Assembly: GCA_964016885.1 (NCBI GenBank)
Contig: OZ024742.1
Location: 370,016,001 to 370,080,000 of the forward strand
DNA from: Eledone cirrhosa
Lineage: Eukaryota
Reading direction: 5' to 3'
Length of the DNA: 64,000 nucleotides
Notes under the pieces: model-generated
Told to the model about the DNA's origin: nothing
The model's database searches: none
What the model saw: the letters and a program-made list of their open reading frames with translations, nothing else
Program-made: the position numbers and the translations under genes
Part shown: piece after piece, positions 17,881 through 64,000 of the stretch
Position numbering within the stretch: the first letter of the stretch is position 1
Layout: each line of letters starts with the position of its first letter

Positions 17881-20263
17881 TATTCTTTCAAGCATTTACC
17901 TCTTTTCATACATAACCACCCCCAAATTATCCTTGGTTCTATGAAACAAAAATGTTTCTTTAAGGTGTTTATATTTATCTAAAATAAAAACTTTGTTCTA
18001 ATTCAATGTAAGAGCCTGTGTTAAGTTATGTTCCAAACACCATGAGTAGTTATAACTAAATCAGTCTAATGTACATTATAAATATAGTAATGAAATGTCT
18101 AGGACATTTCCCGATATGAAATTCTGTGGTTAGAGGAGGATTTGACTGCTATTTCTAGCAATTTGAGTGACCATGTAAGATGAAGTTTCTTTGCCTGTAT
18201 TCACAAGGTCTCACCTTTCTAATGGAGTGTATAACTGATAAAATAAACTCCAGCACATTGCTGGTATTCATGTACTGACATGAGAAAGTTAAGAGGTGAT
18301 TCAAGACCCCAGAGTAGATGTCGAAGTTGGTGAATATCAGCAAAATATTGACCTCAAATATAAGACTATCCTCCCATTTCAGTTTTATTATCACATTTGT
18401 TGACTTATGCACAAATATATTTTATAATTTTATAAGAATTATCACGTATAAACTGTTATATGTACCCTGGCTTTAATTACACTGTTTCTGGTTGAACAAT
18501 AGAAATATTGACATTTTTAAATAGAAATTGGATATTTTCTATTTTGTAAAAATTAATGAGAAACTTTAGAGAATAGAAATAAAATGAGATCAGTTCTGAT
18601 GTGTATATAATATTGTAAGATTAGCAGAGAAAAACTGACTAGGCAGGGAGGAGGATGAAATAAAGTTGACCCCAAAACTGTACAATAGAGTTTAATGGCT
18701 TCCTGTACTGTTTTATAATGAGAGGGAGATAGAAATGATTGGCGAGAGAAGGGGGGAGAAAGGGGAGAGAGAAAGGGGGGGGGGAGGGGAGAGAAAAAGA
18801 AGGAGACAAAGAGAGAGAGAGAAAGAAAGATTAATGTTATTAGTATTAGTGTAAATGTTAGAAATTGCTATAATTATGCAATTATTAACCAACTACTGAC
18901 AACTGCTTTTTCTCTCTCACACACATCTCTCTCTCTCTCCCTCAGCCCCCCACCCCCCATCTCTGTAACCCATTCCTGCAGTAAATATTTGTCACTTAGG
19001 TTACAATGAAATTCTAAATGACATTTCATTCAAAGACATCATTAACGCCATTTAAAGCTGTGGATTTCTTCTGCCAACAAAATCTATTGATTATCATACA
19101 CAGGCACTGAAGCCAATTAGAAGTTGTTGATCAACATGCTGGAAATGGCAGCAAAGTCTCCCTCAAATCATAATCTACCATCTTCTAAAAAATGACAAAT
19201 AGTGAATAATTAAGTCTGCTTCTTTGTGAAAGTACATTAGTTTGACATACCGATTTACATGGATATATGTAAAAGGTAAACAGAAATAAAACAAACAGCA
19301 CAGTATATGGAAGAAATATATTAGTTTAACACTTGAAATAGTTTAGTGTTTCGGACACTAGTCCTTCATCTGAAGATAGAATTAGAAATAGAAGATAAAT
19401 AGAAAGTAAAGAGTTATAAGAGGAAGAAATGAGGAAACAAACGGGGATATATATATATATCATCATCTTTAACATCTGCTTTCCCTGTTAGCAAGGGTTG
19501 GACGGGTCTATATAGACCAAGTGAGTACTGAAGCAGGGCTACTGACATCCCAGACAGGCCGAGGAGGTCTGTATCCCGCTTACATTTGGTCATTATCTAG
19601 TGTAGAGAAGTTGTGTCTTTATACACAGAAGGGTTCTCCTACATGTTTGGCAAACTTCGTCCTTCCTAACACCAGCCACTCTACAGAGTGTACTAGGTGC
19701 TTTTATTGAGTAGATCACCAGCACTAGAGAGGTTGTCATGTCCCTGACACAACTAATGGGTCTTCCCAACCCTTTGTTTTAAATATATATATATATATAA
19801 GAAAGTCAATGAAGTTTTCTTTACATATATTTATGCTTTGTGTATTGACCTGCTACACACGTTTCACAGACGATTGGCTCAAGGTCACCTATTGATCCAA
19901 CTCCAGTATTGATCTGCTCATCAGAATGGTGATTCAACATTATATAAATCCCGAGGTTAACTTTGCCTTTCATCCTTACAGTGTCGATAAAATAAAGTAC
20001 CAGTAATACACTGGGTTATGGTTGGCCTTGTGCCAAAAGTAGAAACAATTTATATATATATATATATATACACACATGCATATATATACACACATACATA
20101 CACACACACATACATACATATATATATATGTATATATATATGCATGTGTGTGTATATATATATATATATATATACACGTGTGTGTGTGTGTGTGTGCGTG
20201 TGTATAGAAAGCAGTTGCTCTAAGAGTACAGGAATGTTTGTATTTTAAATAGTAGTAGTAGAT

Positions 20264-20453
20264 ACATCATCATCACCATTTTACGTCTGCTTTTCTCTGC
20301 TTGCAAGGGTGGGACGGGTCCTATTCAGCACAGCATCTCCCCACTTGTCACGGTCCTTCATCTCCTCCGTCAGTTTCAGTGATCTGAGGCCAGCTCTCAC
20401 CACCTCCGCCTATATTTTTCCTGGTCTACCTCTACTGGCATTTCTTGGCACTT
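20264..20453 (-). mobile_element. RTE family C 3' fragment
   Basis: (CAT)n tail and CTGCTTGCAAGGGTGGGACGGGTC; homologous to 30011-30385. Confidence 0.8.
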
Positions 20454-20625
20454 CTATATATATATATATATGTATAATACATACATATTATATATATATA
20501 TATATATATAATACATACATATATATGTATATATATATATAATACATACATATATATGTATATATATATAATACATACATATATATGTATATATATATAA
20601 TACATACATATATATGTATATATAT

Positions 20626-21411
20626 ATCATCATCAACGTTTAACGTCCGTGTTCCACGCTTGCATGGGTTTGGACGGGGGTATTCCCACTTGAGGCAAGA
20701 GTGATTGTCTTGCTCGCATAGGACTGTCTGGCGGGTTTTCTACAGCTGGATGCCCTTCCTAACACCAACCACATTTACAGTGTGGGTCTGGGAGGTTTTT
20801 ACCGTGTTGCCTACACGGCCACATTACAGCGTGGACTGTCTGGCGGGTTTTCTACAGCTGGATGCCCTTCCTAACACCAACCACATTTACAGTGTGGGTC
20901 TGGGAGGTTTTTACCGTGTTGCCTACACGGCCACATTACAGCGTGGACTGTCTGGCGGGTTTTCTACAGCTGGATGCCCTTCCTAACACCAACCACATTT
21001 ACAGTGTGGGTCTGGGAGGTTTTTACCGTGTTGCCTACACGGCCACATTACAGCGTGGACTGTCTGGCGGGTTTTCTACAGTTGGATGCCCTTCCTAACA
21101 CCAACCACATTTACAGTGTGGGTCTGGGAGGTTTTTACCGTGTTGCCTACACGGCCACATTACAGCGTGGACTGTGTGTTTTTTTTGTCGTGACACCTAC
21201 ACGATCTCATTTGTTTCGGACTGGATGTTGTGGCACCAACATAATTTACATAGAAGAGGGGGCGGTGTGGATGGGGCGGGGGGGGGGGGGGGGATGTATT
21301 TTGTTAGAGGTGCCTACTGACTGTAGGTTTCGCTTTGTACTTAGGCAAGGCGGGTCTTCTGTATGACTGTGTAGCGCCAAAGATCTCAGTCCAGCGAAAT
21401 TGTCTTGGAGA
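20626..21411 (-). mobile_element. RTE family B 3' end with 4 copies of a 112-bp unit in the 3'UTR
   Basis: (CAT)n tail and CGTCCGTGTTCCACGCTTGCATGGG terminal motif; the 112-bp unit is repeated at about 20722-21173; ends in a diverged ORF tail. Confidence 0.9.
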
Positions 21412-21550
21412 TATGCATATGTATATGTATATATATATAATACATACATATATATGTATATATATATAATATGTATATATATATATGTATATATATATAT
21501 AATATGTATATATATATAATACATACATATTATATATATATATATATATT

Positions 21551-24500
21551 ATTGTTAATATTACTACTGTTTTTCTGCTGTATTATTGATAAATTTTCGA
21601 AGGTATTTTAGTTCCTATGACGTTATTATTGTTAATATTACTGCTGTTTTAACTTCGGATATTTACCATGCGGTATTCTAATTCTATCGTATCTCTCTCG
21701 GTTATTTACCATGCGACCCCCAGTGCCTACCTCACAATTTCCCTCCCACCCACCCCCACACACCACCATAGCCTATTCGACCAATCAAACCTCAGCATGC
21801 CATTTCCGCTGCTGCTGCTGCTACTACCTAACTAACTCTCTCCTCCTCTGTCGCAGCCCAACACTCCCTGCCATTACCCCACCACCACTGTTCTGCTAGC
21901 CCTCAATTTTCCCACCGTTATGGAAGGATGAGCTGAGAATAAATTTGAGCAACTCTGAATCAATAGATGAAATATGAATCTGCGAGCTACCAAGCACCCA
22001 CGTGAAGCGCCAACCCAGAGACCCTCCCCTACGAGTGTCGACAAATACCCAAAACTCCGAGTTGGTACCATCAATGTAGGCTCAATGAAAGGAAGAGCAG
22101 GAGAAATCGTAGAAATGCTAGAGCGAAAGGAAATTGACGTATGCTGTGTGCAAGAGACTAGATGGAGAGGAGAGTCTGCCAGAGTCCTCGTAGGAAAAAG
22201 TCGGTGCTACAAATTTTTCTGGGTGGGAAATGACGATGGGATGGGTGGTGTAGGTATACTACTAGCTGACAAGTGGGTAGATAAAGTAATCTCAGTGTAC
22301 AGGGTAAACGCAAGAATCATTAAACTCAGACTAGTCCTGAATAAAACAATTACCACAATAATATCAGCTTACGCACCCCAATCGGGGCTGCCAGACGAAC
22401 TTAAGGATAGGTTTTACGAGTCCCTAATACACACTACTGCTCTAACAGACGACAAGGACTTCCTAATCATCGCAGGAGATTTTAACGGACACGTAGGTAA
22501 ACACTGCGACGGCTTCAATAGAGTACATGGAGGCCATGGAGTTGGCACAAGGAATGAGGAAGGATTCAGACTTCTAGAATTCTGCGACGCCAATGACATG
22601 TCGATATGTAACACAAACTTTAAAAAACCCGACAACCACCTGATCACCTATAGATCAGGGGAGCACTCTAGTCAGTTAGATTTTATCCTCATCAGAGGAC
22701 GTGACAGATGGACGGTCGTAAACACAAAAGCCTTCCCTAGTGAGGAATGTACATCCCAACATAGCTTAGTTGTCAGCGACCTCACGGTCAGAACTAGACG
22801 AGCCCTGAAACAGAGGCCAACCTGGAGAAGAAAGATCCGGAAGCTGAAAGTCCCCTCAACCAGTAACAGATTTAAAGATATTTTACTCAACGCCTACGAC
22901 AGTAAAGAAGAACAGATAAAGACATTTAATGTAGAAGAGAACTGGGAGTTCCTAAAAAATAATTTACTAGAGGCGACGGACGAGGTCTGTGGCTGGAGTA
23001 AGACATCAAGCAGGAGGAGAGTGACTTGGTGGTGGAACAATAAGGTAGATGAAGCAGTCAAGGCCAAGAGACAGACATGGAAAGAATGGAAGAACGGGGG
23101 GAGCAGGGTACATTACATAGAGACCAAGAGGGAAGCTAGGCGACAAGTATACTTAGCTAGGAGGGAAGCAGAGGATAGAAAATTCAAGCATGTTTTACAA
23201 CGTGAGGACCAGAAACAGGAGGTATTCAAGATTGCGAGGCAGTGTGTCAGAGATAGTTGTGATGTCATTGGAGAGAAGTGTATCCGGAATGATAAAGGTG
23301 AGCTTGCCCTCACAAGTGCTGAGAAGAAAGATGCATGGAAGAGTCATTATGATAGATTACTAAATGAGGAGAATGCATGGGAAGAAGAGACCCTACCCCA
23401 AGTAGACCCTATAGAGGGACCAGCAGTACAAGTCAGCGGCAGCGTAGTAAGTAAGGCAATCAGAGATATGAAGATGGGGAAGGCAACCGGTCCATCGGGT
23501 ATAGCTGCCGAGATGCTGAAGGCATCTGGGTCTGTAGGTCACACTATAACCACATGTATCGTTAACCAGGTAATACTAGAAGGGGACATACCAAAAGATT
23601 GGTGCAGTAGCATCATTGTCAACTGCTACAAAGGTAAAGGCGATGCACTAGATAGAGAAAACTATAGAGGTATAAAGTTGATGGACCAGGTCATGAAAGT
23701 AACAGAAAGAGTTATAGCACAGCTGATTAGGGACCGGGTGAAAATAGACGAGATGCAATTTGGGTTTGTACCAGGAAGAGGCACCACTGATGCCCTCTTC
23801 CTTGTGAGGCAATTACAGGAAAAGTACCTAGCTAAAAGTAAGCCACTCTACTTGGCATTTGTCGACCTTGAGAAAGCCTTTGACAGAGTTCCACGCGCTG
23901 TAATCTGGTGGGCTCTTAGAAAACTAGGAGTAGATGAATGGCTTGTGAAAGCGGTACAAGCCATGTATAGGGGAGCAGTCAGCAAAGTTAGGATTAGCAA
24001 TGAGTATAGCGAGGAATTTAGCGTACAGGTTGGGGTCCACCAGGGCTCTGTTCTTAGCCCTCTCCTGTTCATCATAGTCCTGCAGCCAATAACGGAGGAG
24101 TTTAAGACCGGATGCCCATGGGAACTCCTGTATGCTGATGACCTCGCACTCATAGCTGAATCTATGGTAGAACTAGAGAATAAATTCCAAACCTGGAAGC
24201 AGGGACTAGAAAGAAAGGGTCTCAAAGTCAACATGACAAAGACTAAGGTCCTTGTAAGTAGACGAGAAAACAGAACCCAGATCCCCTCAGGGAAATGGCC
24301 TTGCTCAGTATGTAGGAAAGGTGTAGGTAGGAACTCCATTCTCTGCCCCAAATGCAAACAATGGGTACACAAGAGATGTAGCGGGATCTCAGGAAGCTTA
24401 ATTAAGAATGTAGGATTCACATGCAGCAGCTGTGCTGAGACAGCAAACAGCAAACAGCCACAGGAAACAAGTACCACCAATCTCTGGGAGGGCCCTGTAG

Positions 24501-25344
24501 AAACAGTTGACAGCTTCTGCTACCTAGGTGACCGAATTAGCAACGGAGGTGGGTGTTCAGAAAGTGCAATAACTAGGGTAAGAACGGGATGGAAGAAGTT
24601 TAGGGAACTACTACCACTGCTAGCTGCAAAAGGCCTCTCCCTCAGAATGAAAGGCAGACTGTATGATGCGTGTATCCGAACAGCGATGTTGCATGGTAGC
24701 GAGACCTGGGCGCTGAAGGTGGAAGACTTACGTAGATTAGAGAGAAACGAAGCCTGCATGCTCCGATGGATGTGTAACAATAATATACGTGAACGACAAA
24801 GCATAAATGAATTGAGAGAGAGACTGAGCATAAGAGGAATCAAATGCTGTGTGCAGGAGAGGCGGTTGCGCTGGTATGGACATGTGATGCGTATGAAGGA
24901 TGATAGCTGCATAAAAAGGTGCAGAGCACTAGAAGTTGATGGAAACCGGGGAGTGGGGAGACCCAAGATGACCTTGGATGAGGTGATAAAAGCCGACCTT
25001 ACCCAATTACACCTTTCAAAGACAATGACACACGACCGTGACTTCTGGCGTCACGCAGTAATACAGAGTACCCGACCTCCCATGGGTACAAGCTGAAGCA
25101 TATAGACAATATGCCCCCACACACCCCACTGCAAGGTGGTCGTGGAGGTGCCACGGAAAAAAGTACCCAGCACTCACTGTAAATGAGGTTGGTGTTAGGA
25201 AGGGCATCCAGCTGTAGAAACCAAGCCAAATCAGTTCCTGTATGAGCAAGGCATGGTCAGCCGACCAGACACTGCCCACAACAGGACAACCCGTCTAACC
25301 CATGCTAGCGTGGAAGAACGGACGTAAAACGGTGATGATGATGA
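21551..25344 (+). mobile_element. Full-length RTE-clade LINE, family A
   Basis: 5'UTR of about 420 bp, a single long ORF, short 3'UTR and (GAT)n tail; flanked by the microsatellite. Confidence 0.92.
21974..25096 (+). CDS. RTE-A polyprotein: APE endonuclease and RT with an inserted PHD-type finger (1040 aa, uninterrupted)
   Basis: TINVG, VQETRW, SAYAPQ, GDFNGH, QLDFI, NYRGIKL, FVDLEKAFDRV, GVHQGSVLSP, LLYADD, CSVC-CPKC-HKRC-CSSC, FCYLG, RLRWYGHV and GRPK. Confidence 0.95.
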   Translation: MNLRATKHPREAPTQRPSPTSVDKYPKLRVGTINVGSMKGRAGEIVEMLERKEIDVCCVQETRWRGESARVLVGKSRCYKFFWVGNDDGMGGVGILLADKWVDKVISVYRVNARIIKLRLVLNKTITTIISAYAPQSGLPDELKDRFYESLIHTTALTDDKDFLIIAGDFNGHVGKHCDGFNRVHGGHGVGTRNEEGFRLLEFCDANDMSICNTNFKKPDNHLITYRSGEHSSQLDFILIRGRDRWTVVNTKAFPSEECTSQHSLVVSDLTVRTRRALKQRPTWRRKIRKLKVPSTSNRFKDILLNAYDSKEEQIKTFNVEENWEFLKNNLLEATDEVCGWSKTSSRRRVTWWWNNKVDEAVKAKRQTWKEWKNGGSRVHYIETKREARRQVYLARREAEDRKFKHVLQREDQKQEVFKIARQCVRDSCDVIGEKCIRNDKGELALTSAEKKDAWKSHYDRLLNEENAWEEETLPQVDPIEGPAVQVSGSVVSKAIRDMKMGKATGPSGIAAEMLKASGSVGHTITTCIVNQVILEGDIPKDWCSSIIVNCYKGKGDALDRENYRGIKLMDQVMKVTERVIAQLIRDRVKIDEMQFGFVPGRGTTDALFLVRQLQEKYLAKSKPLYLAFVDLEKAFDRVPRAVIWWALRKLGVDEWLVKAVQAMYRGAVSKVRISNEYSEEFSVQVGVHQGSVLSPLLFIIVLQPITEEFKTGCPWELLYADDLALIAESMVELENKFQTWKQGLERKGLKVNMTKTKVLVSRRENRTQIPSGKWPCSVCRKGVGRNSILCPKCKQWVHKRCSGISGSLIKNVGFTCSSCAETANSKQPQETSTTNLWEGPVETVDSFCYLGDRISNGGGCSESAITRVRTGWKKFRELLPLLAAKGLSLRMKGRLYDACIRTAMLHGSETWALKVEDLRRLERNEACMLRWMCNNNIRERQSINELRERLSIRGIKCCVQERRLRWYGHVMRMKDDSCIKRCRALEVDGNRGVGRPKMTLDEVIKADLTQLHLSKTMTHDRDFWRHAVIQSTRPPMGTS

Positions 25345-25498
25345 TATAATACATACATATTATATATATATATATATATAATACATACATATTATATATA
25401 TAATACATACATATATATATATATAATACATACATATTATATATATGTATAATACATACATATTATATATATATAATACATACATATTATATATATAT

Positions 25499-25680
25499 AA
25501 TTGTTTCTTCTTTTGGCACAAGGCCAGCAATTATCCCAGTGTATTACTGGTACTTTATTTTATCGACCCCGTAAGGATGAAAGGCAAAGTTAACCTCGAC
25601 GGGATTTGAACTCAGACTGTAAAGGGACGTAACTATGCTGGAAAGCATGGCGTCCGACCCTCTACCGATACTGCCAATTC
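25499..25680 (-). mobile_element. SINE-1 inserted in the microsatellite
   Basis: Closely matches 3848-4023 and 17118-17300. Confidence 0.85.
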
Positions 25681-25711
25681 AACATACATATTATATATAT
25701 ATAATACATAC

Positions 25712-25746
<35 letters not shown>

Positions 25747-26252
25747 TTTACGTATCGAGAAAGAGAAAAAAAGGGGGGATAGGTGATACATATAGTTATT
25801 TGCCAAGTAGCGTATACCAAAGGTGCTCGATACTAGTGCCGGCAGTATTAAATATTCGAAGTGTTAATATTTAGTGGGCTAGAGAGTTAGCAGAGCGTAA
25901 GCACGTGGGAAAGTAAAAAATCGGAGAATAGACCGTTAAAACATGTTTATTTAAAACATCACGTACGTACGTTTCGTCCAGTTGGGCTTCTCAAGGGCAT
26001 AAATAATCACAAGTGTTCCTTATATTGCTTGGAAAGAGTTTTTGGGGTTAAATCCACATCAAGGTTCATTGCTCGCAAAAATATCTTGTTTTGATTTTGC
26101 AGCAGTTCAAGGGAGGTAACTCTGGCCGGTGTTAGGGCAGTCTTTCCCGGACAATTTTTTATTTATTTATTTATTTTTTTTTATTATTTTTTTTTTTGGC
26201 GCATCCGTTTGTCTGAGGCTGGGTCTGGTATGCAAGGATTGTTTCCTGGGTG

Positions 26253-29039
26253 TTATTTTGCAGCGCCTGCCCGCCGGGGTGTTAAGACTTGTTGCAGGGA
26301 GATCCAGTGTACTGTTTCACTCTTCATCCATCTGAAGAAGGATATTTTTAAGCGATGTGTACAACTTATCGCTGTTTCAGCTCTGCTGTTGATGAGCTCG
26401 TGGGGTGCAGTTATGATGTGGTAGAGCTCCATGAGGCAAAGATCACATTTCCTCTTGAAGTTGTACGGTGCAGCCCTGCCGTCAATCTCCCAGTGCGTGG
26501 AGAAGCTGATGTTTAAGTCTTTTAGTGATGTGATGTAGTCCGCGAGTGAAGTGGAGTGCCTTAGTTTTCTATTTGTGAAAGAGTGGAGATGTGTTCGAAA
26601 CCTAATTTTGAACGGGCCGGAGGTGGCCCCTATATAATGTTTAACGCTATTGTGGCTAGTAATAGTGCATCTATATATAACCCTATCAGTCAAGCCATAT
26701 CCTCTAAGGGGGCAACGTCCTCTGTCGCGGCAGTTGCAATTTCTGTCGCGGTTCCGTCTATTTCCCACGGTAAGGCTATCATTGTTGCTGCCTATGTTGT
26801 TACCTACACTACCGCAGCTGTCGTTAGCACAATTACAACCCACAGCACGCGGGGTGGTGCGATTGTTATTCCGCACGTCATGTTCTGCATGTTCCTCAGT
26901 CATTTTGCGGTTATTCTGGTTGCGTCTGCGGATGCCGTTGCCAACACTATTGGATGCTGCCAGGGAGTTGTTAAGGCCGATATAGTTATTGTCAGGTGTA
27001 GGTGCGTCTGTGTCGAGGTGCTGTGTCTTGGTGATCTTACTGTGGTTCGTTGTTCCTATGATGTCTGCTAGGTTAGGAGTAGTAGAGAAGGATATTTTTA
27101 TATTGTTCCTATTAAGAATTTTTCTATACCTATGGTTGGGCGGGAAGTTCTTCTCTAAGGCTTCGAAGAACATCTGGGGTATGTTGGAGGCCACACTCAG
27201 AGAGTAGGGGGGGGTGGAACCATAGGATGTTACGGTGGCGATTACGTATCCTTGTACTTTTGCTACGGGTGGTTCCATCTAAGTGACCGCTCTTATGTGT
27301 GTTAATGCGCAGTCGCCCGTTCGGTGCCCCTTTCACTTTATGCTCGGGTTCACTCTTCCTACCTCTTCCATGTTTATGTACACGAAGATGTTGGTTGGAA
27401 GGCGTTGGTAGTAGGCCGTCGCCTTTGTTGGTTTTGTAATAGGGGAATAGTTTGAGTAATCTACAGTGGTCCCCGTCGCCGGGGTCGTGATCTTTGGTGC
27501 GGTTATCTATTCTATTATATCTGACTTCAACGAGGTCGCCGCGTGATTGGTTATAGGTATGGCTTACTATAACGTTTGTTTTATGGGGGGGGGGGTTTCT
27601 AGAGCTAGCGTTAGGGATGTAGGAAATTCCTCGGTTAAAGCCGGCGCTTATCAGGGCCCTATTGTAGTAATCTGCCACTTGGTTGAAGATATCCTCATTG
27701 GCGGATAGTCTCGAGATTCTATGTGAGATACTATAGACTATGGAGTTGAGAGTCTGCTTAGGGTGGTTGGAGGTATAATTAATATAAGAGAGGCACTCTC
27801 CAGGCTTATGGTATGGCTTGTATAAGCCCGTACTCAACTCCAGGGTCACGTCCAGGAAGTTGACAACCCTGTGGTTGAGGTCCATAGTTACGGATAGGCC
27901 GTATGACTTAAAGAACCTGTGTATATGTTTGTTAAGGTTCTCTATCCTACGGGGGCTATGGTTCCTAACGGTAAACAGGGCGTCGTCCCTATATACACCT
28001 CCTTGTAGGGCTGGTATTTCTTCCCTAAGCTTATGTAGGAGGTATATCCCGACCAGGTCAGTTGCTTGCGCTGAGTCACTGGACCCCATCGTGACATCGA
28101 AGTTATCAGGACGGTTGGTTCTGGTCCAGTGGGAGCCTTCGAACTGGATAATGGTTCTACGTGCCGCTAGAATTATGTCTATTTCTTTTTTAGTGAGGCT
28201 AGTGTTAGATCTAGCTAAGATAAGTGCCTTATTTAAGAGTATGGGGGAGATAGAGGCGTAGTAACTATCTATATCAAACTGGATGAATTTCAGGGTGGCT
28301 TTATCCGGCAACTCGGTGAACCAATTTATGACCTGGTCGGTGTTGCCCCAGAGGCAGACCTTAGCCTTTCTATTAAGCTCCAGTAGTACTCTGTCGAGGA
28401 TCACTTTACTAATCTTACCTATATCTGATGTAGAGGGGCATATTAGTCTAATAGAGGGGCTTTCATTAAAGTCATATTTGTGATCCTTAAGAGAGAATTT
28501 AGGCGTCAGAGGGACGTACGGGTTAGTGTACTTTTCTATTTCTAAGCTGGTGACTATATCCTTCTCTACCCTATTTATGTCAGGGTACTAGAGGGTGTCT
28601 TTTTGTAGTCTTTGTGTAGTTCCTTATAGATGAATTTGTTATACTCACTCGCGTCCATCTTGTACAGCTGTTTGGTTTTGTCGGAGGTGACGAAGAGGTG
28701 CGGGTCATTCTTGATCTTAGTTATTAGTGTATCAAGGGACGTTAAGAATGGATTGCTGCATTGGTGTTTCTTTCTGAACTTAACGTTTTTGATCATTTTC
28801 AGCAGGTCCTCTTCAAAGGAGTCCAGTAAGGTGTTGTGCGCCATATCTAGTAAGGTGTTGTGCGGTGGGTTTCGGTATGTTTTGAATCCATACCTCTCTT
28901 TGGGTTCAGGAAGGTTACGGGTGTTCTTATCCAGGTGGTAGGCCTTCCATCTGACTCTCCGTATAAATGAATTAGTAGCGTCTATAAACAGTTTAAGGTA
29001 GGTTTTTCTGCTGGGTAAGGGGATACACTTGAGAGACAT
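26253..29039 (-). pseudogene. PLE polyprotein RT plus GIY-YIG with two frameshifts (about 28580 and about 27210)
   Basis: LKDHK..RLICP, FDIDSYY, FDVTMGS, YRDD, VNFLDVTL, YKPYHKP, SNHP, WF.PPYS, CNC...CPL, VIY..HYIG.T..FK.R..H and CDLC..E..N.R.E...C.H. Confidence 0.88.
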
Positions 29040-29326: not shown

Positions 29327-29369
29327 ATCACCTACGTACGTTTCGCCCAGTTGGGCTTCTCAAGGGCAT
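29327..29369 (-). ncRNA. Hammerhead-like motif with a non-canonical core in the 5' pLTR; second copy at 25958-26000
   Basis: Minus strand reads GCC-CTTGAGAA-GCCCA-AC-TGGGC-GAAACGTACGTA-GGT. Helix II is perfect and helix III is palindromic, but the core deviates from CUGANGA. Confidence 0.45.
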
Positions 29370-29987: not shown

Positions 29988-30010
29988 CATACATATTATA
30001 TAATACATAT

Positions 30011-52724: not shown

Positions 52725-52996
52725 ATAAGTAAATAAATAAAATAAAATAAAATAAGATAAATAAATACATACACAAGCACAATAACAACAAGCACATAAA
52801 CACACACTAGTCACCCAGCAGACACAACACTATACACACTAGTCACACAGCACACATAACACTATACACACACGCAAATGCATGCGCAAAGAAGACAAAA
52901 TAAAATAAACAAACAAGCAAATAAATAAATAAATATATAGACAGACTGAATAAAAAATGGCGTAGACATACAACACAACAGGAGGAAAAAATATAA

Positions 52997-53038
52997 CACC
53001 ACTGACGATGTTGCAGATGTGCAACGAAAGATTTATGT
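52997..53038 (+). ncRNA. Minimal hammerhead motif in the PLE pLTR; antisense copy at about 48801-48842
   Basis: CA-CTGACGA-T-GTTGCA-GATG-TGCAAC-GAAA-GATT-TA-TG. Same layout as 38127-38171, but helix I is weak. Confidence 0.6.
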
Positions 53039-53493
53039 AAATTATGTAAACTATATATATGTGTTTGTGTCTATATTGTATCTGTATCATTTTTGACCGT
53101 CGGTCAGTCAATGGCAACATTGAGGACCGAGTAAGTTAGATCGCAGATATAAAAGACAGTGAGAAGCGAAAACCAACCAAACAGTGAGTGTGTTCTGTTA
53201 TTAATTCTGGCAATATTACACAAATATGACCCTCCCCAAGTATAACAATATCTGTTTCGACACACGATTTCATATAAAAAAACCTCGCTATATATATATA
53301 TATAATACATACATATATATATATAGATATATAATACATACACACACACATATATATATATATAGATATATAATACATACACACACACATATATATATAT
53401 ATAGATATATAATACATACACACACACATATATATATATATAGATATATAATACATACACACACACACATATATATATAGATATATAATACAT

Positions 53494-53760: not shown

Positions 53761-54751
53761 CATACATATATATATATATATATATTTCCAGGTACCTTAT
53801 GAATTTGACTTTCCGTATTTATTACTGTTGTGAAATATTGTGGCTTTTTTTGGTTGTAACTTCTGTTTTTTAGCCTAAGAAAATATATATATATGCCTAC
53901 GTATATAATTACATGCATATACTTATTTATTTTCTTTTATTAATTGAGTTCTTTACACAAGGAATTAATATTGGTTTTGAAATAACTAATTAACCCGCAT
54001 GTGTTTTATATTTTACTCCTAATTCGGCCGGAGAATTATATTCCCATTTGCCCTTTAAGGCATAACTTTCTGTATTTACTGCGGTTATGAGAAGCGGTTC
54101 TTATTCGGGTACAACTTCTGATTTAGCCTAAGAAAATATCTATATGCGTGTGCAATTTATACAAGCATATATTTATTTTTTTATTTTCAATTGAGTTCTT
54201 AACACGTTGGATTGATAATGTTTTCAAAAAAACTAATTAACCCGCGTGTATATTATTTTTTTTCCTCATTTCGTGGATCGTGGGTTGTCTCCCCTTCCCG
54301 CTTCGTGTTGCTATGATACTTCCTCAGCCCAAAACTGCTGGAATTTCAAATTTGGCGGTCATTCGAGGCGAGAGAGAGTAACTTTACGGACACGATTTTT
54401 GACAGCGGTAAGAAATTATTTTCTTATATCAAAGTTTAACGGGCTTCCACTGATGATTTATAAGTGCCCACCTAAATATATTCTTACATGAATATATATT
54501 AGGCTTCTACATAAACTGGAAACATTCTCCCAACTTGTATAAAACTTATAATGAAACAATTGTTTGGAAAGAGATATACTTTAACTTTAATTATATCTCA
54601 TAAAATAATACAACTGGTTTTTCCACATTATACATATTGTTCGCACCCCAAACACTAAAATTGGGTTTATATTTAAATATAACCTAATGTTTGTTGAGTG
54701 AGATGGTTACCAGTCAGAGTTTAGTTTTAAACTATCTCTGTTATTGTATTA

Positions 54752-54790
<39 letters not shown>

Positions 54791-55162: not shown

Positions 55163-55444
<282 letters not shown>

Positions 55445-55533: not shown

Positions 55534-56069
55534 ATCATCATCATCAACGTATAACGTCCGTGTTCCACGCTTGCATGGGTTTGGACGGGGGTTTTCCCAC
55601 TTGAGGCAAGAGTGATTATCTTGCTCGCATAGGACTGTCTGGCAGGTTTTCTACAGTTGGATGCCCTTCCTAACACCAACCACATTTACAGTGTGGGGTT
55701 GGGAGGTTTTTACCGTGTTGCCTACACGGCCACATTACACCGTGGACTGTCTGGCGGGTTTTCTACAGCTGGATGCCCTTCCTAACACCAACCACATTTA
55801 CAGTGTGGGGCTGGGAGGTTTTTACCGTGCTGCCTACACGGCCACATTTACAGCGTGGACTGTGTGTTTTTTTGACGTGACACCTACACGATCTCATTTG
55901 TTTCGGCCTGGATGTTGTGGCACCAACATAACTTTACATTGAAAGGGGCGGTGTGGATGGGGTGGGGTTGGTGGGACGGGGGTGTATTTTGTTAGAGATG
56001 CCTACTGACTGTAGTAGGTTTTACTTTGTATTTAGGTAAGGCGGGTCTTCTCTATTACTGAGTACCGCC
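55534..56069 (-). mobile_element. RTE family B 3' end (2 copies of the 112-bp unit)
   Basis: (CAT)n tail, 3'UTR and last codons YSVIEKTRLT. Confidence 0.9.
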
Positions 56070-56120
56070 GAAATAAATGAGGTTGTGTAGGTGTCACGAC
56101 AAAAAAACACACAGTCCACG

Positions 56121-56411
56121 GGGGGGGGGGGGCATATTGTCTATATGCTTCAGCTTGTACCCATGGGAGGTCGGGTACTCTGTATTACTGCGTGACGCCA
56201 GAGACCACGGTCGTGTGTCATCGCCTTTGAGAGGTGTAATTGGGTAAGGTCAGCTTTTATCACCTCATCCCAGGTCATCTTGGGTCTCCCCACTCCGCGG
56301 TTTACATTGACTTCTAGTGCTCTGCACCTTTTTATGCAGCTGTCATCCTTCATACGCATCACATGTCCATACCAACGCAACCGCCTCTCCTGCACACAGC
56401 ATTTGATTCCT
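56121..56411 (-). mobile_element. RTE family A C-terminal fragment lacking most of its 3'UTR
   Basis: QERRLRWYGHV...QSTRPPMGTS*. Confidence 0.88.
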
Positions 56412-56512: not shown

Positions 56513-58504
56513 ATCATCATCATCATCATCATCATCATCGTTTAACGTCCGTGTTCCACGCTTGCATGGGTTTGGACGGGGGTTTTCCCACTTGAGGCAA
56601 GAGTGATTGTCTTGCTCGCATAGGACTGTCTGGCAGGTTTTCTACAGTTGGATGCCCTTCCTAACACCAACCACATTTACAGTGTGGGTCTGGGAGGTTT
56701 TTACCGTGTTGCCTACACGGCCACATTACAGCGTGGACTGTGTGTTTTTTTGTCGTGACACCTACACGATCTCATTTGTTTCGGCCTGGATGGTGTGGCA
56801 CCAACATAACTTTACATAGAGGGGGCGGTGTGGATGGGGTGGGGGTGGTGGGACGGGGGTGTATTTTGTTAGAGATGCCTACTGACTGTAGTAGGTTTTA
56901 CTTTGTATTTAGGTAAGGCGGGTCTTCTCTATTACTGAGTACCGCCAAAGGTCTCGGTCCAGTGACATTGTCTTGGTGAGGTGTAAGTGTGTGAGGTCGG
57001 AGTTTATCAGCTCGTCCCAGGTTTTTCTGGGTCTGCCTATTCCGTGGCTACCGTCTATCTTTATTGCCCTGCACTTTGTTATACAGCTATCGTCCTTCAT
57101 GCGCATCACGTGACCATACCAACGTAGCCTTCTCTCTAGTAAACAACATCTGATCCCTCTTATTTCTAATTTTTTCCTTAGTTCGTTTATGCTTTGTCGT
57201 TCACGTATATTACTATTACACATCCAGCGGAGCATGCAAGCTTCGTTTCTCTCTAGTCTGCGTATATCCTCTGCACACAATGCCCAGGTCTCACTGCCAT
57301 GCAACATTGCTGTTCGTATGCAGGCATCGTACAACCTGCCTTTCATTTTTAGGGAGAACCCTTCAGCGGCTAATAGTGGTATAAGCTCTCTGAACTTTTT
57401 CCACCCAGTTCTGACTCTAGCTACTGTACTTTCAGAGCACCCTCCCCCACTGCTGATTTTGTCACCCAGGTAACGGAAGCTGTCCACTATTTCTATAGAA
57501 CCCTCTGCGCAGTTGAAAGAGCTAGTATTTTGTGGGCACTTGCTGCTACATATTGCCCCAGAACACCGGCCACATGTAAAATCTATGTTCTTAGTTAGCT
57601 TACCTGTGATCCCACTACATCTTTTATGAACCCAAACTTTGCATTTGGGACACAAAATGGAATTTCTACCTACGCCTTTCCTACACTCTGCGCATGGCCA
57701 CTTCCCGGAGGGGACCGCCGCCTTATTTTCTTTCTTACAAACTAGAACTTTAGTCTTAGCCAGGTTAATTTTAAGGCCTTTTGATTCTAGCCCATGCTTC
57801 CAAGTTTGGAATTTCTTCTCTAGCTCGGCCATTGATTCAGCTATGAGCGTTAGATCATCTGCGTATAGGAGTTCCCATGGGCAGCCGGTCTTGAACTCCA
57901 CTGTTATAGCCTGGAGGGCAATAATAAATAGCAGGGGGCTAAGAACAGAGCCCTGATGAACACCAGCTTTTACACTAAACTCTTCACTATATTCGTTGTT
58001 AATTCTGACCTTGCTGACTGTTTCTTTATACATGGCTTGTATAGCTCTCACAAGCCATTCGTCAACACCTAGTTTTCTAAGAGCCCACCAGATAATGGAA
58101 CGGGGGACTCTGTCGAACGCTTTCTCCAAGTCGACAAAAGCTAAGTATAGGGGTTTACTTTTAGCTAGGTACTTCTCCTGTAGTTGTCGTACAATGAAAA
58201 GAGCGTCTGTGGTACTTTTTTCTGACACAAACCCGAACTGCATTTCATCTAGATCAATTCGCTCTCTGATTAGTTGCGCTATTACTTTTTCCGTGACCTT
58301 CATGACCTGGTCGATTAATTTAATGCCTCTATAGTTACTCCTATCTAGGGCGTCTCCTTTACCCTTATAACAGTTAACTATAATGCTGCTACGCCAGTCC
58401 TTTGGAACAACCCCATTCTGTATGACTTAGTTGACTATCCGGGTGACCATGGTGTGTCCCACCGTACCAGATGCCTTCAGCATCTAGGCAACTATTTCCG
58501 AAGG
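56513..58504 (-). mobile_element. RTE family B, 5'-truncated (about 2 kb)
   Basis: ORF 56909-58303 with RT and PHD; (CAT)n tail. Confidence 0.93.
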
Positions 58505-58565: not shown

Positions 58566-58570
58566 TATAA

Positions 58571-58886
58571 TGGAGGCGCATGGCTTAGTGGTTAGAGCAT
58601 TGGCCTTGCAATCGAAAGGTTGTGAGTTCAATTCTCAGACCGGGTGATGTGTTGTTTCCTTGAGCAAGAGACTTTATTTCACATTGCTCCAGTTTACTCA
58701 GCTGTAGAAATGAGATGATAGGGACTAGGGTCCCTATCATTCCACTGCAAAGTTGTCGTGGAGGTGCCATGGCAAAAGAGCACCCAGCACTCACTGTAAA
58801 TGAGGTTGGTGTTAGGAAGGGCATCCAGCTGTAGAAATCATGCCAGAATCAGTTCCTGTCCCACCCTTGCAAGCAGGGAAAAGCGG
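58571..58886 (+). mobile_element. tRNA/CORE-type SINE with an RTE-derived tail (SINE-2)
   Basis: A-box TGGCTTAGTGG, B-box GTTCAATTCT, CORE-like CCTTGAGCAAG..TTTACTCAGCTGTAGAAATGAG, then RTE 3'UTR sequence. Confidence 0.85.
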
Positions 58887-59225
58887 TAATACAGGGTACC
58901 CGACCTCCCATGGGTACATGCTGAAGCATATAAACAATATGCCCCCCCCCCACCGCAAGGTGGTCGTGGAGGTGCCACGGCAAAAAAGCACCCAGCCCAC
59001 ACTGTAAAGTGGACGTGTAGGCGCCACGAAAAAGCACCCAGCACTCACTGTAAATGAGGTTGGTGTTAGGAAGGGCATCCAGCTGTAGAAATCAAGCCAG
59101 ATCAGTTCCTGTATGAGCAAGGCATGGTCAGCCGACCAGACACTGCCCACAACAGGACAACCCGTCTAACCCATGCTAGCGTGGAAGAACGGACGTAAAA
59201 CGGTGATGATGATGATGATGATGAT
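58887..59225 (+). mobile_element. RTE family A 3' end
   Basis: TAATACAGGGTACCCGACC..TGA, complete 3'UTR and (GAT)n. Confidence 0.9.
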
Positions 59226-59412: not shown

Positions 59413-59539
59413 ATAGGAACGAGTAGGACCCCGACAGCTGAGCTCAAGCCGTTTCGACGGCTAATTCTGGACTGAATTAGTCCAGAATTAGCCATCGAAA
59501 CGGCTTGAGCTCAGCTGTCGGGGTTCTACTCATTCCTAT
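59413..59539. repeat. 61-bp-arm foldback hairpin (5-nt loop, 3 mismatches)
   Basis: 59413-59473 is the reverse complement of 59479-59539. Confidence 0.95.
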
Positions 59540-59710
59540 TACCCACTCTACTACCCTAAGTATTGAGTACTTTGGTGCGTTATGGTCCATCTGGTTCCTT
59601 ACCACATTTCCTTCGTTATATATATATATATGTATTATATATATATATATATGTATTATATATATATATATATATAATACATACATATTATATATCTATA
59701 TAATACATAC

Positions 59711-59792: not shown

Positions 59793-60126
59793 ATCGTCAT
59801 CATTTTACGTCCGCTTTTCCCTGCTTGCAAGGGTGGGACAGGAACTGATTCTGGCTTGATTTCTACAGCTGGATGCCCTTCCTAACACCAACCTCATTTA
59901 CAGTGAGTGCTGGGTGCTTTTTTGCCGTGGCACCTCCACGACCACTTTGCAGTGGAATGATAGAGACCCCAGTCCCTATCATCTCATTTCTACAGCTGAG
60001 TAAACTGGAGCACTGTGAAATAAAGTGTCTTGCTCAAGGAAACAACACATCACCCGGTCTGAGAATTGAACTCACAACCTTTTGATTGCAAGGCCAATGC
60101 TCTAACCACTAAGCCATGTGCCTCCA
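59793..60126 (-). mobile_element. SINE-2, complete copy
   Basis: Reverse complement of 58571-58886, extended to GGACGTAAAATGATGACGAT. Confidence 0.88.
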
Positions 60127-60189
60127 TATATATAAATATTTAACCCCTGCTCCCTCCTATCCCCCCCCCCCCTCTCTATCTATATATAT

Positions 60190-63100
60190 AAGATAAACCC
60201 TACAAGTACGAAAAATCACATCCGCCAAATTCCTATTCCGCACTGGCTGCTTTCATGGTATAATGTAACGTACAACTATTTCTCCATTCTCCTCTCCATT
60301 TTAATTCCTTAGTCCATCGTCATTCTCTATCATTTTTTTCCCCGAATCCAATCTTTGCCTTTCTACTCGATACTCTGTTGTATTTTCCAAAACAAATCTT
60401 GTATTTTTGTTAATGCTTGTTAAATTATGCCCAAAATACGGGGATCTTATTTAAACCTTACCTTCTCGCTAACAACCCAACATCCCTCCCGCCCGTCCCC
60501 ACGCACCACCATTATTACGTGGACCAATCATAAGTCAGAGGCCTATACTATCGCTTACCTGGTTGCCTTTCGATATGACGGATGGATGGACTACGGAATT
60601 CTGGAGAGTTGAAGAGAGAAAAATCTGGACACTCCAAATGCCAAAGATAAAGACAAATTCACCTCGTGGACGAGAATGCAAGCACTCCTCTTCTTTGTTT
60701 CAGCCGCGGATGGCTAACATAACCCCCACCCCCCACCCCCCACCGCTCCCACCCTCCAAACGCAATCCAAAACTTCAGAGTTGGTACCATGAATGTAGGC
60801 ACTTAAAGGGTCGCTCTAACGAGGTTGTAGAAATGCTTGAACGTAAGGAGGTCGATGTTTATTGTATTCAAGAGACCAGGTAGAGGGGTGGGTCTGCTAG
60901 ATTCATCGTGGGTAAAGAACGATGCTATAAGCTTTTCTGTGTGAGAAATGACAATGGGCTGGGTGGAGTAGGAATCATGGTAGCAGAAAAGTGGGCAGAT
61001 AAGATAATAGACGTAAATAGAGTGAACGACAGAATAATTAAAATAAGACTTGTCCTCAATAGAACTACGGTGACAGTAATATCTGCGTACGCACCCCAAT
61101 CCGGACTGCCCGGCACTATAAAAGACAGATTCTATGAGACACTGATGCTCACTACCTCCCAAATAACCGACAGTGACTATATAATTATTGTAGGCGACCT
61201 AAATGGTCACGTTGGACAACATTGTGACGGCTATGATGGAATCCATGGAGGCTATGGGTTTGGTACTAGAAATGAGGAAGGCTCCAGAATCCTGGAATTC
61301 TGTGACGCAAATAACCTAACTATCTGAAACACTAACTTCAAAAAACGTGACAATCACCTGATCACCTATAGATCGGGGGAACACACAAGCCAGGTCGATT
61401 ATATCCTTACCAGAAGACGTGACAGAGTGTCTGTTGTAAACACTAAATCCCTCCCCTACGAAGAATGAACCTCCCAACATAGACTGATAATTAGCGACCT
61501 AATAGTCAGGACGAGACGTACTAGACAGCAGAAGAGGACTATCCTCAGGAGAAAAATATGAAAGCTAAAGGACCCCACAGCCAGAAATAAATTTAAAAGC
61601 ATATTACTTGATGCTTTCGACAGTAAGGAAGAGCAATTAGAGTCGTACAATATAGAGGAACAGTGGGAATTCCTGAAAGCAAACCTGCTGATGGCGGCAG
61701 ACGAAGTCTGTGGCTGGAGCAGGCCTGTAGGCAGGAGGAGAGTAACATGGTGGTGGAACAGTAAGGTGGAGGAGTCAATTAAGGCCAAAAAGCAGGCTTG
61801 GAAAGTATGGCAGGATGGGGGAAGTAGAGAAGACTATCAAGTGGCCAGGAGGGAAGCTAGGAGACAAGTGTACTTCGCAAGAAGGGAAGCAGAGGAAAGA
61901 AAGTTCAAGCATGTTCTACAACGCGAGGACCAAAAACGTGAGGTGTTCAGGATTGCTAGGCAATGTGTCAAGGAAAACCGTGATATTGTCGGGGAGAAGT
62001 GTGTACTTAATGATGATGGCGTACTTCCCATCACTGACAAGAAGGTAGCTTGGAAGTGTCACTACGAAAGGCTACTAAATGAGGAGAATAAATGGGAGAA
62101 AGACAGTCTCCCCCACATCGACCCAATAGAGAGACCAGCAGTGTTAGTCGAAGGTAGTATAATAAGTAAGGCAATCAAAGATATGAAGACGGGTAAGGCG
62201 GCTGGGCCTTCGGAAATAGTTGCTGAGATGCTGAAAGCCTCTGGAACGGTGGGACACACCATGGTCACCCGGATAGTAAACCAAGTCATACAGAATGGGG
62301 TTGTTCCGAAGGACTGGCATAGCAGCATCATCATTAACTGTTACAAGGGTAAAGGAGATGCCCTAGATAGGAGTAACTATAGAGGCATTAAATTAATCGA
62401 CCAGGTCATGAAGGTCACGGAAAAAGTAATAGCGCAACTAATCAGAGAGAGAATTGATCTAGATGAAATGCAGTTCGGGTTTGTGTCAGGCAAAAGTACC
62501 ACATACGCTCTTTTCATTGTACGACAACTACAAGAGAAGTACCTAGCTAAAAGTAAACCCCTATACTTTGCTTTTGTCGACTTGGAGAAAGCGTTCGACA
62601 GAGTCCCCCGTTCCATTATCTGGTGGGCTCTTAGAAAACTAGGTGTTGACGAATGGCTTGTGAGAGCTATACAAGCCATGTATAAAGAAACAGTCAGCAA
62701 GGTCAGAATTAACAACGAATATAGTGAAGAGTTTAGCGTAAAAGTTGGTGTTCATCAGGGCTCTGTTCTTAGCCCCCTACTATTTATTATTGCCCTTCAG
62801 GCTATAACAGTGGAGTTCAAAACCGGCTGCCCATGGGAACTCCTATACGCAGACGATCTAACGCTCATAGCTGAATCAATGGCCGAGCTAGAGTGCATAA
62901 AAGATGTAGTGCGATCACAGGTAAGCTAACTAAGAACATAGATTTTACATGTGGCCGGTGCTCTGGTGCAATAAGTAGCAGCAAGTGCCCACAAAATACT
63001 AGCTCTTTCAATTGCGCAGAGGGTTCTATAGAAATAGTGGACAGCTTCCGTTACCTGGGTGACAAAATCAGCAGTGGGGGAGGATGCTCTGAAAGTACAG

Positions 63101-64000
63101 TAGCTAGAGTCAGAACTGGATGGAAAAAGTTCAGAGAGCTTATACCACTACTAGCCGCTAAAGGGTTCTCCCTAAAAATGAAAGGCAGGTTGTATGATGC
63201 CTGCATACGAACAGTAATGTTGCATGGCAGTGAGACCTGGGCATTGTGTGCAGAGGATATACGCAGACTAGAGAGGAACGAAGCTTGCATGCTCCGCTGG
63301 ATGTGTAATAGTAATATACGCGAACGGCAAAGTATAAACGAACTAAGGGAAAAATTAGAAATAAGAGCGATCAGATGTTTAGTCGAGAGAAGGCTACGTT
63401 GGTATGGTCACGTGATGCGCATAAAAGACGACAGCTGTATAAAAAAGTGCAGGGCAATAAAGATAGACGGTAGCCACGGAGTAGGCAGACCCAGAAAAAC
63501 CTGGCACGACCTGATAAATTCCGACCTCACACACTTACACCTCTCCAAGACAATGTCACTGGACCGAGATCTTTGGCGGTACTCAGTAATAGAGAAGACC
63601 CGCCTTACCTAAATACAAAGTAAAACCTACTACAGTCAGTAGGCATCTCTAACAAAATACACCCCCGTCCCACCACCCCCACCCCATCCACACCGCCCCT
63701 TTCAATGTAAAGTTATGTTGGTGCCACAACATCCAGGCCGAAACAAATGAGATCGTGTAGGTGTCACGACAAAAAAACACACAGTCCACGCTGTAATGTG
63801 ACCGTGTAGGCAACACGGTAAAAACCTTCCAGACCCACACTGTAAATGTGGTTGGTGTTAGGAAGGGCATCCAGCTGTAGAAAACCCACCAGACAGTCCT
63901 ATGCGAACAAGACAACCACTCTTGCCTCAAATGGGAAAACTCCCGTCCAAACCCATGCAAGCGTGGAAGATGGACGTTAAACGATGATGATGATGATGAT
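60190..64000 (+). mobile_element. Full-length but decayed RTE family B (ORF remnant about 60638-63612)
   Basis: 5'UTR (left boundary uncertain), APE motif I present, several stops and frameshifts, a deletion of about 190 bp at 62893, 3'UTR and (GAT)n tail at the window end. Confidence 0.9.

What the first reader, a model, noticed from the sequence alone, without database searches (positions are those of the whole stretch)
20040..64000. A 44-kb retroelement 'landing pad' built on one compound (TA)n-AATACATAC microsatellite
Seen: more than 25 insertions from unrelated groups (RTE A/B/C with APE nuclease, two PLE lineages with GIY-YIG nuclease, SINEs and unclassified inserts). Most have (TA)n-AATACATAC on one or both sides and sit side by side, rarely inside one another. 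The first 20 kb has only old fragments of these families. Established: some PLEs and RTEs favour simple repeats. Inference: the array is a shared, self-renewing target that regrows after each insertion and acts as a safe haven. Because copies occur in both orientations, it could also act as a piRNA-cluster-like trap.
Basis: partly seen in the sequence, partly recalled or inferred. Interest (0 to 1): 0.75.

Follow-up and report, generated by a model that had tools for sequence, protein, structure and literature searches.

The report
Retroelement pile-up in barcoded TA repeat
Twenty-six pieces of about 13 kinds of jumping gene sit side by side in one TA-rich repeat; three of these kinds also form such pile-ups elsewhere in this genome, each around its own spacer, so the spacer is likely only a local barcode and the block a large but common by-product of a shared preference for TA.

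Summary
The block is real: 20,256-63,999 holds 26 insert pieces of about 13 families, separated by 19 TA tracts; 16 tracts carry AATACATAC, against 0 of 78 random tracts. Coverage by these families is 83% versus 11% at random. The motif is not the shared target. Elsewhere in the genome, RTE-A/B and two PLE families sit in plain (TA)n (101 of 120 ends; background about 8%), and 0 of 120 touch the motif. At most 14 of 11,357 or more RTE-B tails do, 3 of them here. Other pile-ups carry other private spacers. The spacer is therefore a locus barcode, likely spread by slippage, because measurable target duplications are short. Copies lie 0 to 9% from their nearest relatives, which points to repeated insertion over time. 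One 4.2-kb segment is inverted. Load is about 12 times what TA content predicts, so feedback or tolerance is plausible but unproven. The piRNA-trap idea is untested; mixed orientation follows from a palindromic target. The closest precedent is the plant SaTar arrays. This scan has already noted TA pile-ups elsewhere in this genome.

The parts
20256..63999 (.). Whole array: 26 insert pieces and 19 TA compound tracts (6,010 bp) with the private spacer AATACATAC; outer flanks hold only about 8 bp (left) and about 36 bp (right, beyond the window) of seed
20256..20454 (-). RTE-C fragment; most diverged RTE copy (about 9% from nearest relatives); left edge
20628..21427 (-). RTE-B 3' part with a 112-bp unit repeated 4 times
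21550..25347 (+). RTE-A full length; open 1041-aa ORF (APE, RT, PHD finger); (GAT)n tail
25500..25683 (-). SINE-like repeat 1 (tail AAACAAT; strand read from the tail)
25744..29553 (-). PLE1, Hydra-like (RWK, DKT, CxCX5C, GIY-YIG without CCHH), 441-bp pseudo-LTRs, ORF in three frames
29717..29874 (+). RTE-B 3' tip
29997..30384 (-). RTE-C 3' part
30385..32814 (+). PLE4: 3' end of a second Hydra-like PLE with a short inverted 5' piece and a hammerhead-like core; fused to RTE-C
32815..34528 (.). Longest tract (1,714 bp, 36 strict spacers)
34529..36928 (+). RTE-A2, 5'-truncated, very young (0.1% from other copies), 3' UTR missing at the PLE3 junction
36929..41112 (.). Inverted segment: PLE3, two tracts with all 32 spacers reversed, RTE-B2 and RTE-A3; bounded by 517-bp inverted RTE-A copies (2 mismatches)
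36929..38342 (+). PLE3 3' part, Neptune-like (CX4CxxC linker, cysteines inside GIY-YIG, hammerhead-like core)
39113..40122 (+). RTE-B2 3' part
40307..41112 (-). RTE-A3 3' part; likely the displaced 3' end of RTE-A2
41174..43470 (-). RTE-B3, 5'-truncated, young
44026..48376 (.). Unclassified TA-flanked repeat U47, interrupted by RTE-B4
44277..47746 (+). RTE-B4 nested in U47 (APE, RT, PHD in an open frame)
48599..53288 (+). PLE2, Neptune-like, with an inverted 5' copy (48,599-49,355) and one in-frame stop
53786..54754 (.). Unclassified repeat U53 (TA-flanked at one other locus)
55337..55442 (+). 3' tip of a fourth LINE ('RTE-D', TAGA tail; clade inferred, not tested)
55536..56410 (-). RTE-B5 fused to a tail-less RTE-A4
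56516..58504 (-). RTE-B6, 5'-truncated
58570..59223 (+). tRNA-headed SINE2 (3'-truncated) fused to a young RTE-A 3' end
59416..59616 (.). U59: fixed-length, hairpin-bearing, TA-flanked short repeat (MITE-like, unclassified)
59795..60127 (-). tRNA-headed SINE2 with an RTE-C-type tail
60139..63999 (+). RTE-B7, near full length with 5' UTR, stops and an internal deletion; right edge

Best explanation
The block is a pile-up of 26 insert pieces, mostly retroelements, and the four families sampled sit in alternating (TA)n across this genome; its AATACATAC spacer marks this locus and was likely multiplied from one short seed by repeat slippage, while each insertion likely split a tract and left TA on both sides for the next. 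Steps. (1) Shown: RTE-A/B (APE nuclease) and Hydra- and Neptune-like PLEs (GIY-YIG motifs) have TA flanks across the genome. (2) Inferred: they insert by target-primed reverse transcription; for RTEs the (GAT)n tail would pair with AT at the nick (61 of 82 tails run into AT). (3) Shown: tracts in one pad share a private spacer, neighbouring tracts resemble each other more than distant ones, and other pads carry other spacers. (4) Inferred: because measurable target duplications are mostly 6 bp or less, the tracts regrow mainly by host slippage or unequal exchange, not by the duplication itself. (5) Shown: copies lie 0 to about 9% from their nearest relatives; inferred: they arrived one by one over a long time. 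(6) Shown: one internal segment is inverted.
For: TA flanks: 22 of 30 RTE-B and 22 of 30 RTE-A within 40 nt of the tail; 28 of 30 PLE1 within 40 nt, 29 of 30 PLE3 within 80 nt; background 8.1% for a 40-nt window. Motif flanks: 0 of 120; 3 + 11 of at least 11,357 RTE-B tails. Private spacer: 90 of the genome's 982 copies of the 25-mer lie in this 43.7 kb. Other pads: GTATATG at C1:48-88 kb, CTTA at C1:1.24 and 1.83 Mb, a 22-nt spacer at C1:3.06 Mb, CATACATATTG 35 kb downstream. Adjacent tracts share more variants than distant ones (Jaccard 0.29 vs 0.21, permutation p=0.005; 0.026 to random tracts). Target duplications of 6 bp or less in 25 of 29 copies with little or no tract. Age spread. Two 44-kb windows in C1:0-9.6 Mb hold as many young RTE-A/B ends (6) as this block. 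Known PLE preference for (TA)n: PMC8557442.
Against: TA content alone predicts 0.5 young RTE-A/B ends here against 6 seen, and two pure arrays of similar spacer (13 kb on C2, 7 kb on C14) hold no library insert; so something beyond TA length matters (age, feedback or tolerance). No empty allele or spanning read was obtained, so regrowth is not shown. The duplication lengths rest on imperfect 5' boundary calls. The RTE and PLE3 flank samples are the first 30 hits of each family, all within the first 5 Mb of C1, whereas the background is 40 evenly placed 10-kb stretches. The older-outside gradient seen here (rho 0.59, p=0.011) does not hold across six other pads (rho 0.17, p=0.37).
Confidence: 0.72

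Rival explanations
1. A pre-existing array of about 6 kb was simply cut up by TA-seeking elements; there is no regrowth and no feedback.
For: Insert-free arrays of similar spacer exist, 7 and 13 kb long. Short duplications add little target. 5' and 3' tract lengths are symmetric (33 vs 32 of 80 copies, p=0.26).
Against: Both outer flanks keep only about 8 and 36 bp of repeat while 19 inner tracts are 60-1,714 bp. Spacer variants are local to neighbouring tracts. Load is about 12 times the expectation from TA content.
Confidence: 0.15
2. The (TA)n-AATACATAC motif is itself a shared, recognised target.
For: 19 of 26 pieces have it within 80 nt; RTE-B tails carry it about 6-8 times above a poorly sampled random background.
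Against: That enrichment does not exceed the roughly 9-fold for plain TA; 0 of 120 sampled ends; the mirror motif is about as common; arrays of the motif on C2 and C14 are empty.
Confidence: 0.02
3. The block is kept by the host as a dual-strand piRNA source or trap.
For: Dense, multi-family, both strands (12 +, 11 -), young copies present, close to large satellite arrays and about 9 Mb from the contig end.
Against: Mixed orientation is the null for a palindromic target, and part of it comes from an inversion. Similar pads are frequent, so the anatomy does not single this one out.
Confidence: 0.07
4. The block is a misassembly or mostly local duplication joined through (TA)n tracts.
For: Assemblers can join reads through TA tracts (general knowledge); RTE-B2 and B3 are close (10 differences in 587 bp) and RTE-A2/A3 nearly identical.
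Against: No N in the window. Misjoins would mix spacers, yet 16 of 19 tracts carry one rare spacer. Most copies differ from each other by 3-6% and have distinct truncation points; A2 is as close to copies elsewhere (0.1%) as to A3.
Confidence: 0.04

Closest known systems
SaTar arrays of guayule, rice, sorghum and citrus (PMC5907723; abstract, passages and section 19 read)
   Same: Unrelated families stacked side by side and linked by microsatellites, often (TA)n; fusions where the spacer was deleted; TA expansion after insertion reported there for maize TAFTA elements.
   Different: SaTars are small non-autonomous Mutator-like DNA transposons and never nested; here the cargo is mostly retroelements of two enzyme classes, the array is 43.7 kb, one piece is nested, and each array carries a private spacer.
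Hydra-, Neptune- and Naiad-clade PLEs with (TA)n targets (PMC8557442; passages and section 11 read)
   Same: PLE1 and PLE4 show Hydra motifs, PLE2 and PLE3 Neptune-type motifs; pseudo-LTRs, inverted 5' copies and TA flanks.
   Different: The passages read describe single families, not mixed arrays with LINEs; no tree was built here.
RTE-clade LINEs and their SINEs, whose tail repeat matches the target (PMC6007223, abstract and passages; PMC2887409, abstract only)
   Same: One ORF with APE and RT, short-repeat tail, first target base matching the tail, SINE sharing the LINE 3' end.
   Different: A PHD finger inside the ORF; a strong preference for alternating TA; duplications here look shorter than the 7-15 bp cited for RTEs.
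Tandem TEs by repeated insertion at a preferred site in Drosophila (PMC5932611; abstract only)
   Same: Site preference makes adjacent insertions during periods of activity.
   Different: That abstract concerns tandem dimers and arrays; here 13 families share a spacer that itself expands.
TE hotspots in Octopus vulgaris (PMC13282606; parts 1-2 of 3 read)
   Same: 288 dense 100-kb windows, with recently active RTE, PLE and SINE families in that genome.
   Different: No mechanism or microsatellite link is given in the parts read; that this genome is an octopod is a recalled resemblance and an earlier AI note, not tested.

Membership tests
RTE-clade LINE (RTE-A, RTE-B) | Single ORF with APE endonuclease and RT | tested here: met
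   1041-aa and 1007-aa frames with Exo_endo_phos and RVT_1
RTE-clade LINE (RTE-A, RTE-B) | Short-repeat 3' tail and 5' truncation | tested here: met
   (GAT)n tails and variable 5' ends
RTE-clade LINE (RTE-A, RTE-B) | Target duplication of 7-15 bp (PMC6007223) | tested here: inconclusive
   25 of 29 are 6 bp or less, but some 5' ends were mis-called
RTE-clade LINE (RTE-A, RTE-B) | RT groups with the RTE clade in a tree | not tested
   no reference set was used; the clade name rests on anatomy
Hydra-clade PLE (PLE1) | RWK and DKT motifs, CxCX5C linker, C-terminal GIY-YIG without CCHH | tested here: met
   against section 11 of PMC8557442; Pfam gave no hit
Hydra-clade PLE (PLE1) | Insertion into (TA)n | tested here: met
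   28 of 30 ends; the other two run on into element sequence
Hydra-clade PLE (PLE1) | Canonical hammerhead ribozyme | tested here: inconclusive
   no core by my pattern in PLE1 and no Rfam hammerhead hit; a core-like match lies in PLE4
Neptune-clade PLE (PLE2, PLE3) | CX2-5CxxC linker and CCHH in a C-terminal GIY-YIG | tested here: met
   linker and two cysteines inside GIY-YIG; histidines read
Neptune-clade PLE (PLE2, PLE3) | Placement in Neptune rather than Nematis by RT tree | not tested
   no tree built
SaTar-type modular array | Unrelated elements linked by microsatellites, not nested | tested here: inconclusive
   largely so: 19 linking tracts and 4 fusions, but 1 of 26 pieces is nested
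SaTar-type modular array | Cargo is non-autonomous Mutator-like elements with terminal inverted repeats | tested here: not met
   23 of 26 pieces are LINE, PLE or SINE; it works like a SaTar array but is not one
Dual-strand piRNA cluster | Junction-unique piRNAs with 1U/10A ping-pong | not testable with these tools
   needs small-RNA libraries
Dual-strand piRNA cluster | High density of TE pieces on both strands | tested here: met
   83% coverage, 12 + and 11 -; not diagnostic, since the target is palindromic

The most novel reading that the evidence does not exclude
This genome carries tens to hundreds of self-feeding TA pads in which each insertion raises the chance of the next beyond what TA length gives, because split, re-expanding TA tracts form break-prone hairpins that several unrelated nucleases exploit. 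Each pad's private spacer is a lineage barcode that records its whole history, and the largest pads become multi-family piRNA sources.
Probability: 0.15. Interest if true: 0.6.

Novelty: new variant of a known kind. Interest (0 to 1): 0.33.

Why it matters
It explains a visible layer of this genome's structure without any special locus: about 4% of the sampled DNA is TA runs, four abundant families share them, and pile-ups follow. The private spacers make a standing question testable, namely whether insertion hotspots come from feedback or from tolerance, because every pad can be traced to its seed and compared across individuals. It also cautions against reading dense two-strand TE blocks as piRNA clusters from anatomy alone.

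Tried and rejected
Reads: four runs of contigs were laid on the left junction and three runs of contigs plus one RAD run on the right. No record spanned either junction and repeats swamped the signal, so there is no verdict on assembly or polymorphism. No RNA holder listed. A DNA search with the RTE-B 3' end returned nothing, presumably because very common words are skipped; exact patterns were used instead. Rejected: repeats generated at the 5' junction (33 vs 32 of 80). Rejected as general: inside-out growth (true here; not in six other pads). Rejected as proof of long duplications: the 24-46-bp matches across inserts, because both flanks are tandem repeats. Rejected: A2/A3 identity as evidence of duplication by itself, since the subfamily is that young; the inversion rests on spacer orientation instead. 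L083, an RTE-B among 29-bp repeats, looked like amplified target but reads as a pre-existing minisatellite. Rfam gave only sub-threshold hits (TA hairpins, two tRNA-like SINE heads). Pfam and PDB sequence searches did not detect GIY-YIG. Nine literature searches listed no paper whose title or abstract start describes retroelement arrays with private TA spacers in an animal; subscription papers, Repbase notes and supplements were not seen.

Full report
Setting. The window lies at G000:C3:370,016,001-370,080,000 in a 3.0-Gb assembly; C3 is 378.9 Mb long. The window has no N. The genome looks like an octopod's by recalled resemblance and by an earlier AI note; I did not test this and nothing below depends on it.

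Observation. Self-comparison and reading of junctions give 26 insert pieces between 20,256 and 63,999: 3 families with RTE anatomy and the tip of a fourth LINE, 4 PLE families, 2 SINEs and 3 unclassified repeats. Twelve lie on +, 11 on -, 3 are unoriented. Nineteen TA tracts of 60-1,714 bp (6,010 bp) separate them; 16 of 19 contain AATACATAC, against 0 of 78 tracts in 40 evenly placed 10-kb stretches. The families cover 83% of the block and on average 11% (maximum 55%) of those stretches. Nine exact young ends are seen against 0.68 expected, though the block was picked for density. One piece is nested (RTE-B4 in U47) and four junctions lack a tract. The motif stops at both ends: none in 80 kb upstream or from 65,001 onward downstream, one copy in the right flank. 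The first 20 kb has only SINE1 fragments of these families.

Identity of the parts. RTE-A1 has an open 1041-aa ORF and RTE-B4 lies in an open 1007-codon frame, both with APE, RT and a PHD finger. PLE1 has RWK, DKT and CxCX5C and no CCHH, as listed for Hydra in PMC8557442 section 11. The insert at 30,385-32,814 is the 3' end of a second such family. PLE2 and PLE3 have a CX4CxxC linker and cysteines inside the GIY-YIG, as in Neptune. PLE1 and PLE2 show no significant BLASTP match in the frames compared. GIY-YIG is called from motifs only; Pfam gave no hit. No trees were built.

The target is (TA)n, not the motif. Exact 3' ends number 11,357 for RTE-B, 10,124 for RTE-A, 832 for PLE1 and 24,484 for PLE3. 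Among the first 30 hits of each, four or more TA units follow in 22, 22 and 28 within 40 nt and in 29 within 80 nt (PLE3 often has a further 60-nt end; 15 within 40 nt). The background for a 40-nt window is 8.1%. None of the 120 touches AATACATAC. Across the genome, 3 RTE-B tails are followed by the motif in one orientation and 11 in the other, 3 of the 11 in this block: at most 0.12%, against a thinly sampled background of 0.015%, so no more than the TA effect. The 25-mer motif has 982 matches and its mirror 808; 90 of the 982 are here.

The spacer is a local barcode. A second pad 35 kb downstream uses CATACATATTG. Stretches that I chose on C1 because young ends cluster there show pads with GTATATG (about 40 kb, 11 RTE pieces), CTTA (two pads, with RTE and PLE) and a 22-nt spacer. 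In C1:0-9.6 Mb, 2 windows of 43.7 kb hold 6 exact RTE-A/B ends, as many as this block, and 6 hold 5 or more, against 0.15 and 0.94 under uniform placement. That region is 2.5 times denser than the genome, so tens to a few hundred such pads genome-wide is an extrapolation. Of ten other regions fetched for carrying the same spacer, two are 7- and 13-kb arrays with no library insert and several have a few inserts.

How it grew. Neighbouring tracts share more spacer variants than distant ones (0.29 vs 0.21, p=0.005), as expected if an insertion splits a tract. Target duplications are 6 bp or less in 25 of 29 copies with little or no tract, among 80 uncensored of 82 RTE ends examined, though some 5' ends were mis-called. 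61 of 82 tails run directly into AT, in line with the tail-target pairing model of PMC6007223 (abstract and passages). Fifteen RTE pieces lie 0-9% from their nearest fetched relatives; the youngest cluster in the middle (rho 0.59, p=0.011), but this gradient is absent when six other pads are pooled (29 pieces, rho 0.17, p=0.37). The outer flanks keep only about 8 and 36 bp of repeat, which favours growth from a short seed; this is inference. TA content predicts 0.5 young RTE-A/B ends against 6 seen. The excess could be feedback, age or tolerance, and I cannot separate them.

An inversion. All 32 spacers in the tracts at 38,343-40,306 are reversed. RTE-A3 has opposite spacer orientations on its two sides, and its tail flank continues the flank of RTE-A2's 5' end. 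So 36,929-41,112 is inverted between 517-bp inverted RTE-A copies with 2 mismatches, and A2 and A3 are probably one insertion. TA repeats are known fragile, cruciform-forming sites (search listing only); a role here is conjecture.

Assembly and piRNA. Two read layings found no record spanning either outer junction and give no verdict. Internal evidence argues against misjoining: one rare spacer throughout, distinct truncation points and copies mostly 3-6% apart. The piRNA idea could not be tested. Two-strand content is the null for a palindromic target.

Comparison. SaTar arrays (PMC5907723; abstract, passages and section 19) are the same architecture built by Mutator-like DNA elements, and that paper cites TA expansion after insertion in maize. 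This block works like them but fails membership on cargo. PLE preference for (TA)n is published. Octopus vulgaris TE hotspots are mapped without a mechanism in the two parts I read. I also saw passages of PMC9115989 and the abstracts of PMC2887409 and PMC5932611. Nine searches listed no paper on animal retroelement arrays with private TA spacers; supplements, Repbase and subscription papers were not seen. This scan has already noted TA and other microsatellite pile-ups elsewhere in this genome; these are unchecked AI notes and not support.

Verdict. Observation confirmed, interpretation partly supported. A large, mixed example of a common pile-up in this genome: new variant of a known kind, interest 0.33.

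Noticed in passing
window 6,600-11,950 (-): Two-ORF APE-RT element (zinc-knuckle ORF, open 998-aa ORF2; Tx1/L1-like by recalled anatomy) outside the block; relatives at 75-98% lie 14 and 102 kb downstream of the window.
   Followed up: partly
L014-L020 and L013:1-6700 (upstream of the window): At least 76 kb of uniform satellite (unit about 75 bp in the part read) ends about 3.2 kb before the window; further satellites at 574-1,315 (67 bp), 4,435-6,392 (72 bp) and 12,900-15,793 (55 bp).
   Followed up: no
window 21,971-25,096 and 44,223-47,246: Both RTE ORFs carry a PHD finger after the RT domain (Pfam E about 5e-6); a possible chromatin-reading part that could bear on clustering.
   Followed up: no
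L004-L005 (98.9-110.4 kb in window coordinates): Second pad with the private spacer CATACATATTG and young RTE-B and RTE-C copies.
   Followed up: partly
L153-L154 (C2:35.555-35.568 Mb) and L160-L161 (C14:1.992-1.999 Mb): 13-kb and 7-kb arrays of a similar spacer without library inserts; natural controls for the feedback test.
   Followed up: partly
window 58,570-58,886 and 59,795-60,127: tRNA-headed SINE whose body shares part of the RTE-A 3' UTR and whose tail matches RTE-C; likely moved by RTE-C.
   Followed up: partly
window 20,721-21,175, 47,418-47,649 and 55,632-55,863: A 112-bp unit in the RTE-B 3' UTR occurs in 1, 2 or 4 tandem copies in different insertions.
   Followed up: no
L188-L189 (C1:8.50-8.52 Mb): Four 50-bp RTE-B tips with near-identical flanks, apparently duplicated with a satellite unit rather than inserted separately.
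   Followed up: no
L221-L250: PLE3 ends come in two forms, with or without a further 60-nt stretch, often as inverted pairs 0.1-2 kb apart, matching the tail described for PLE insertions.
   Followed up: no
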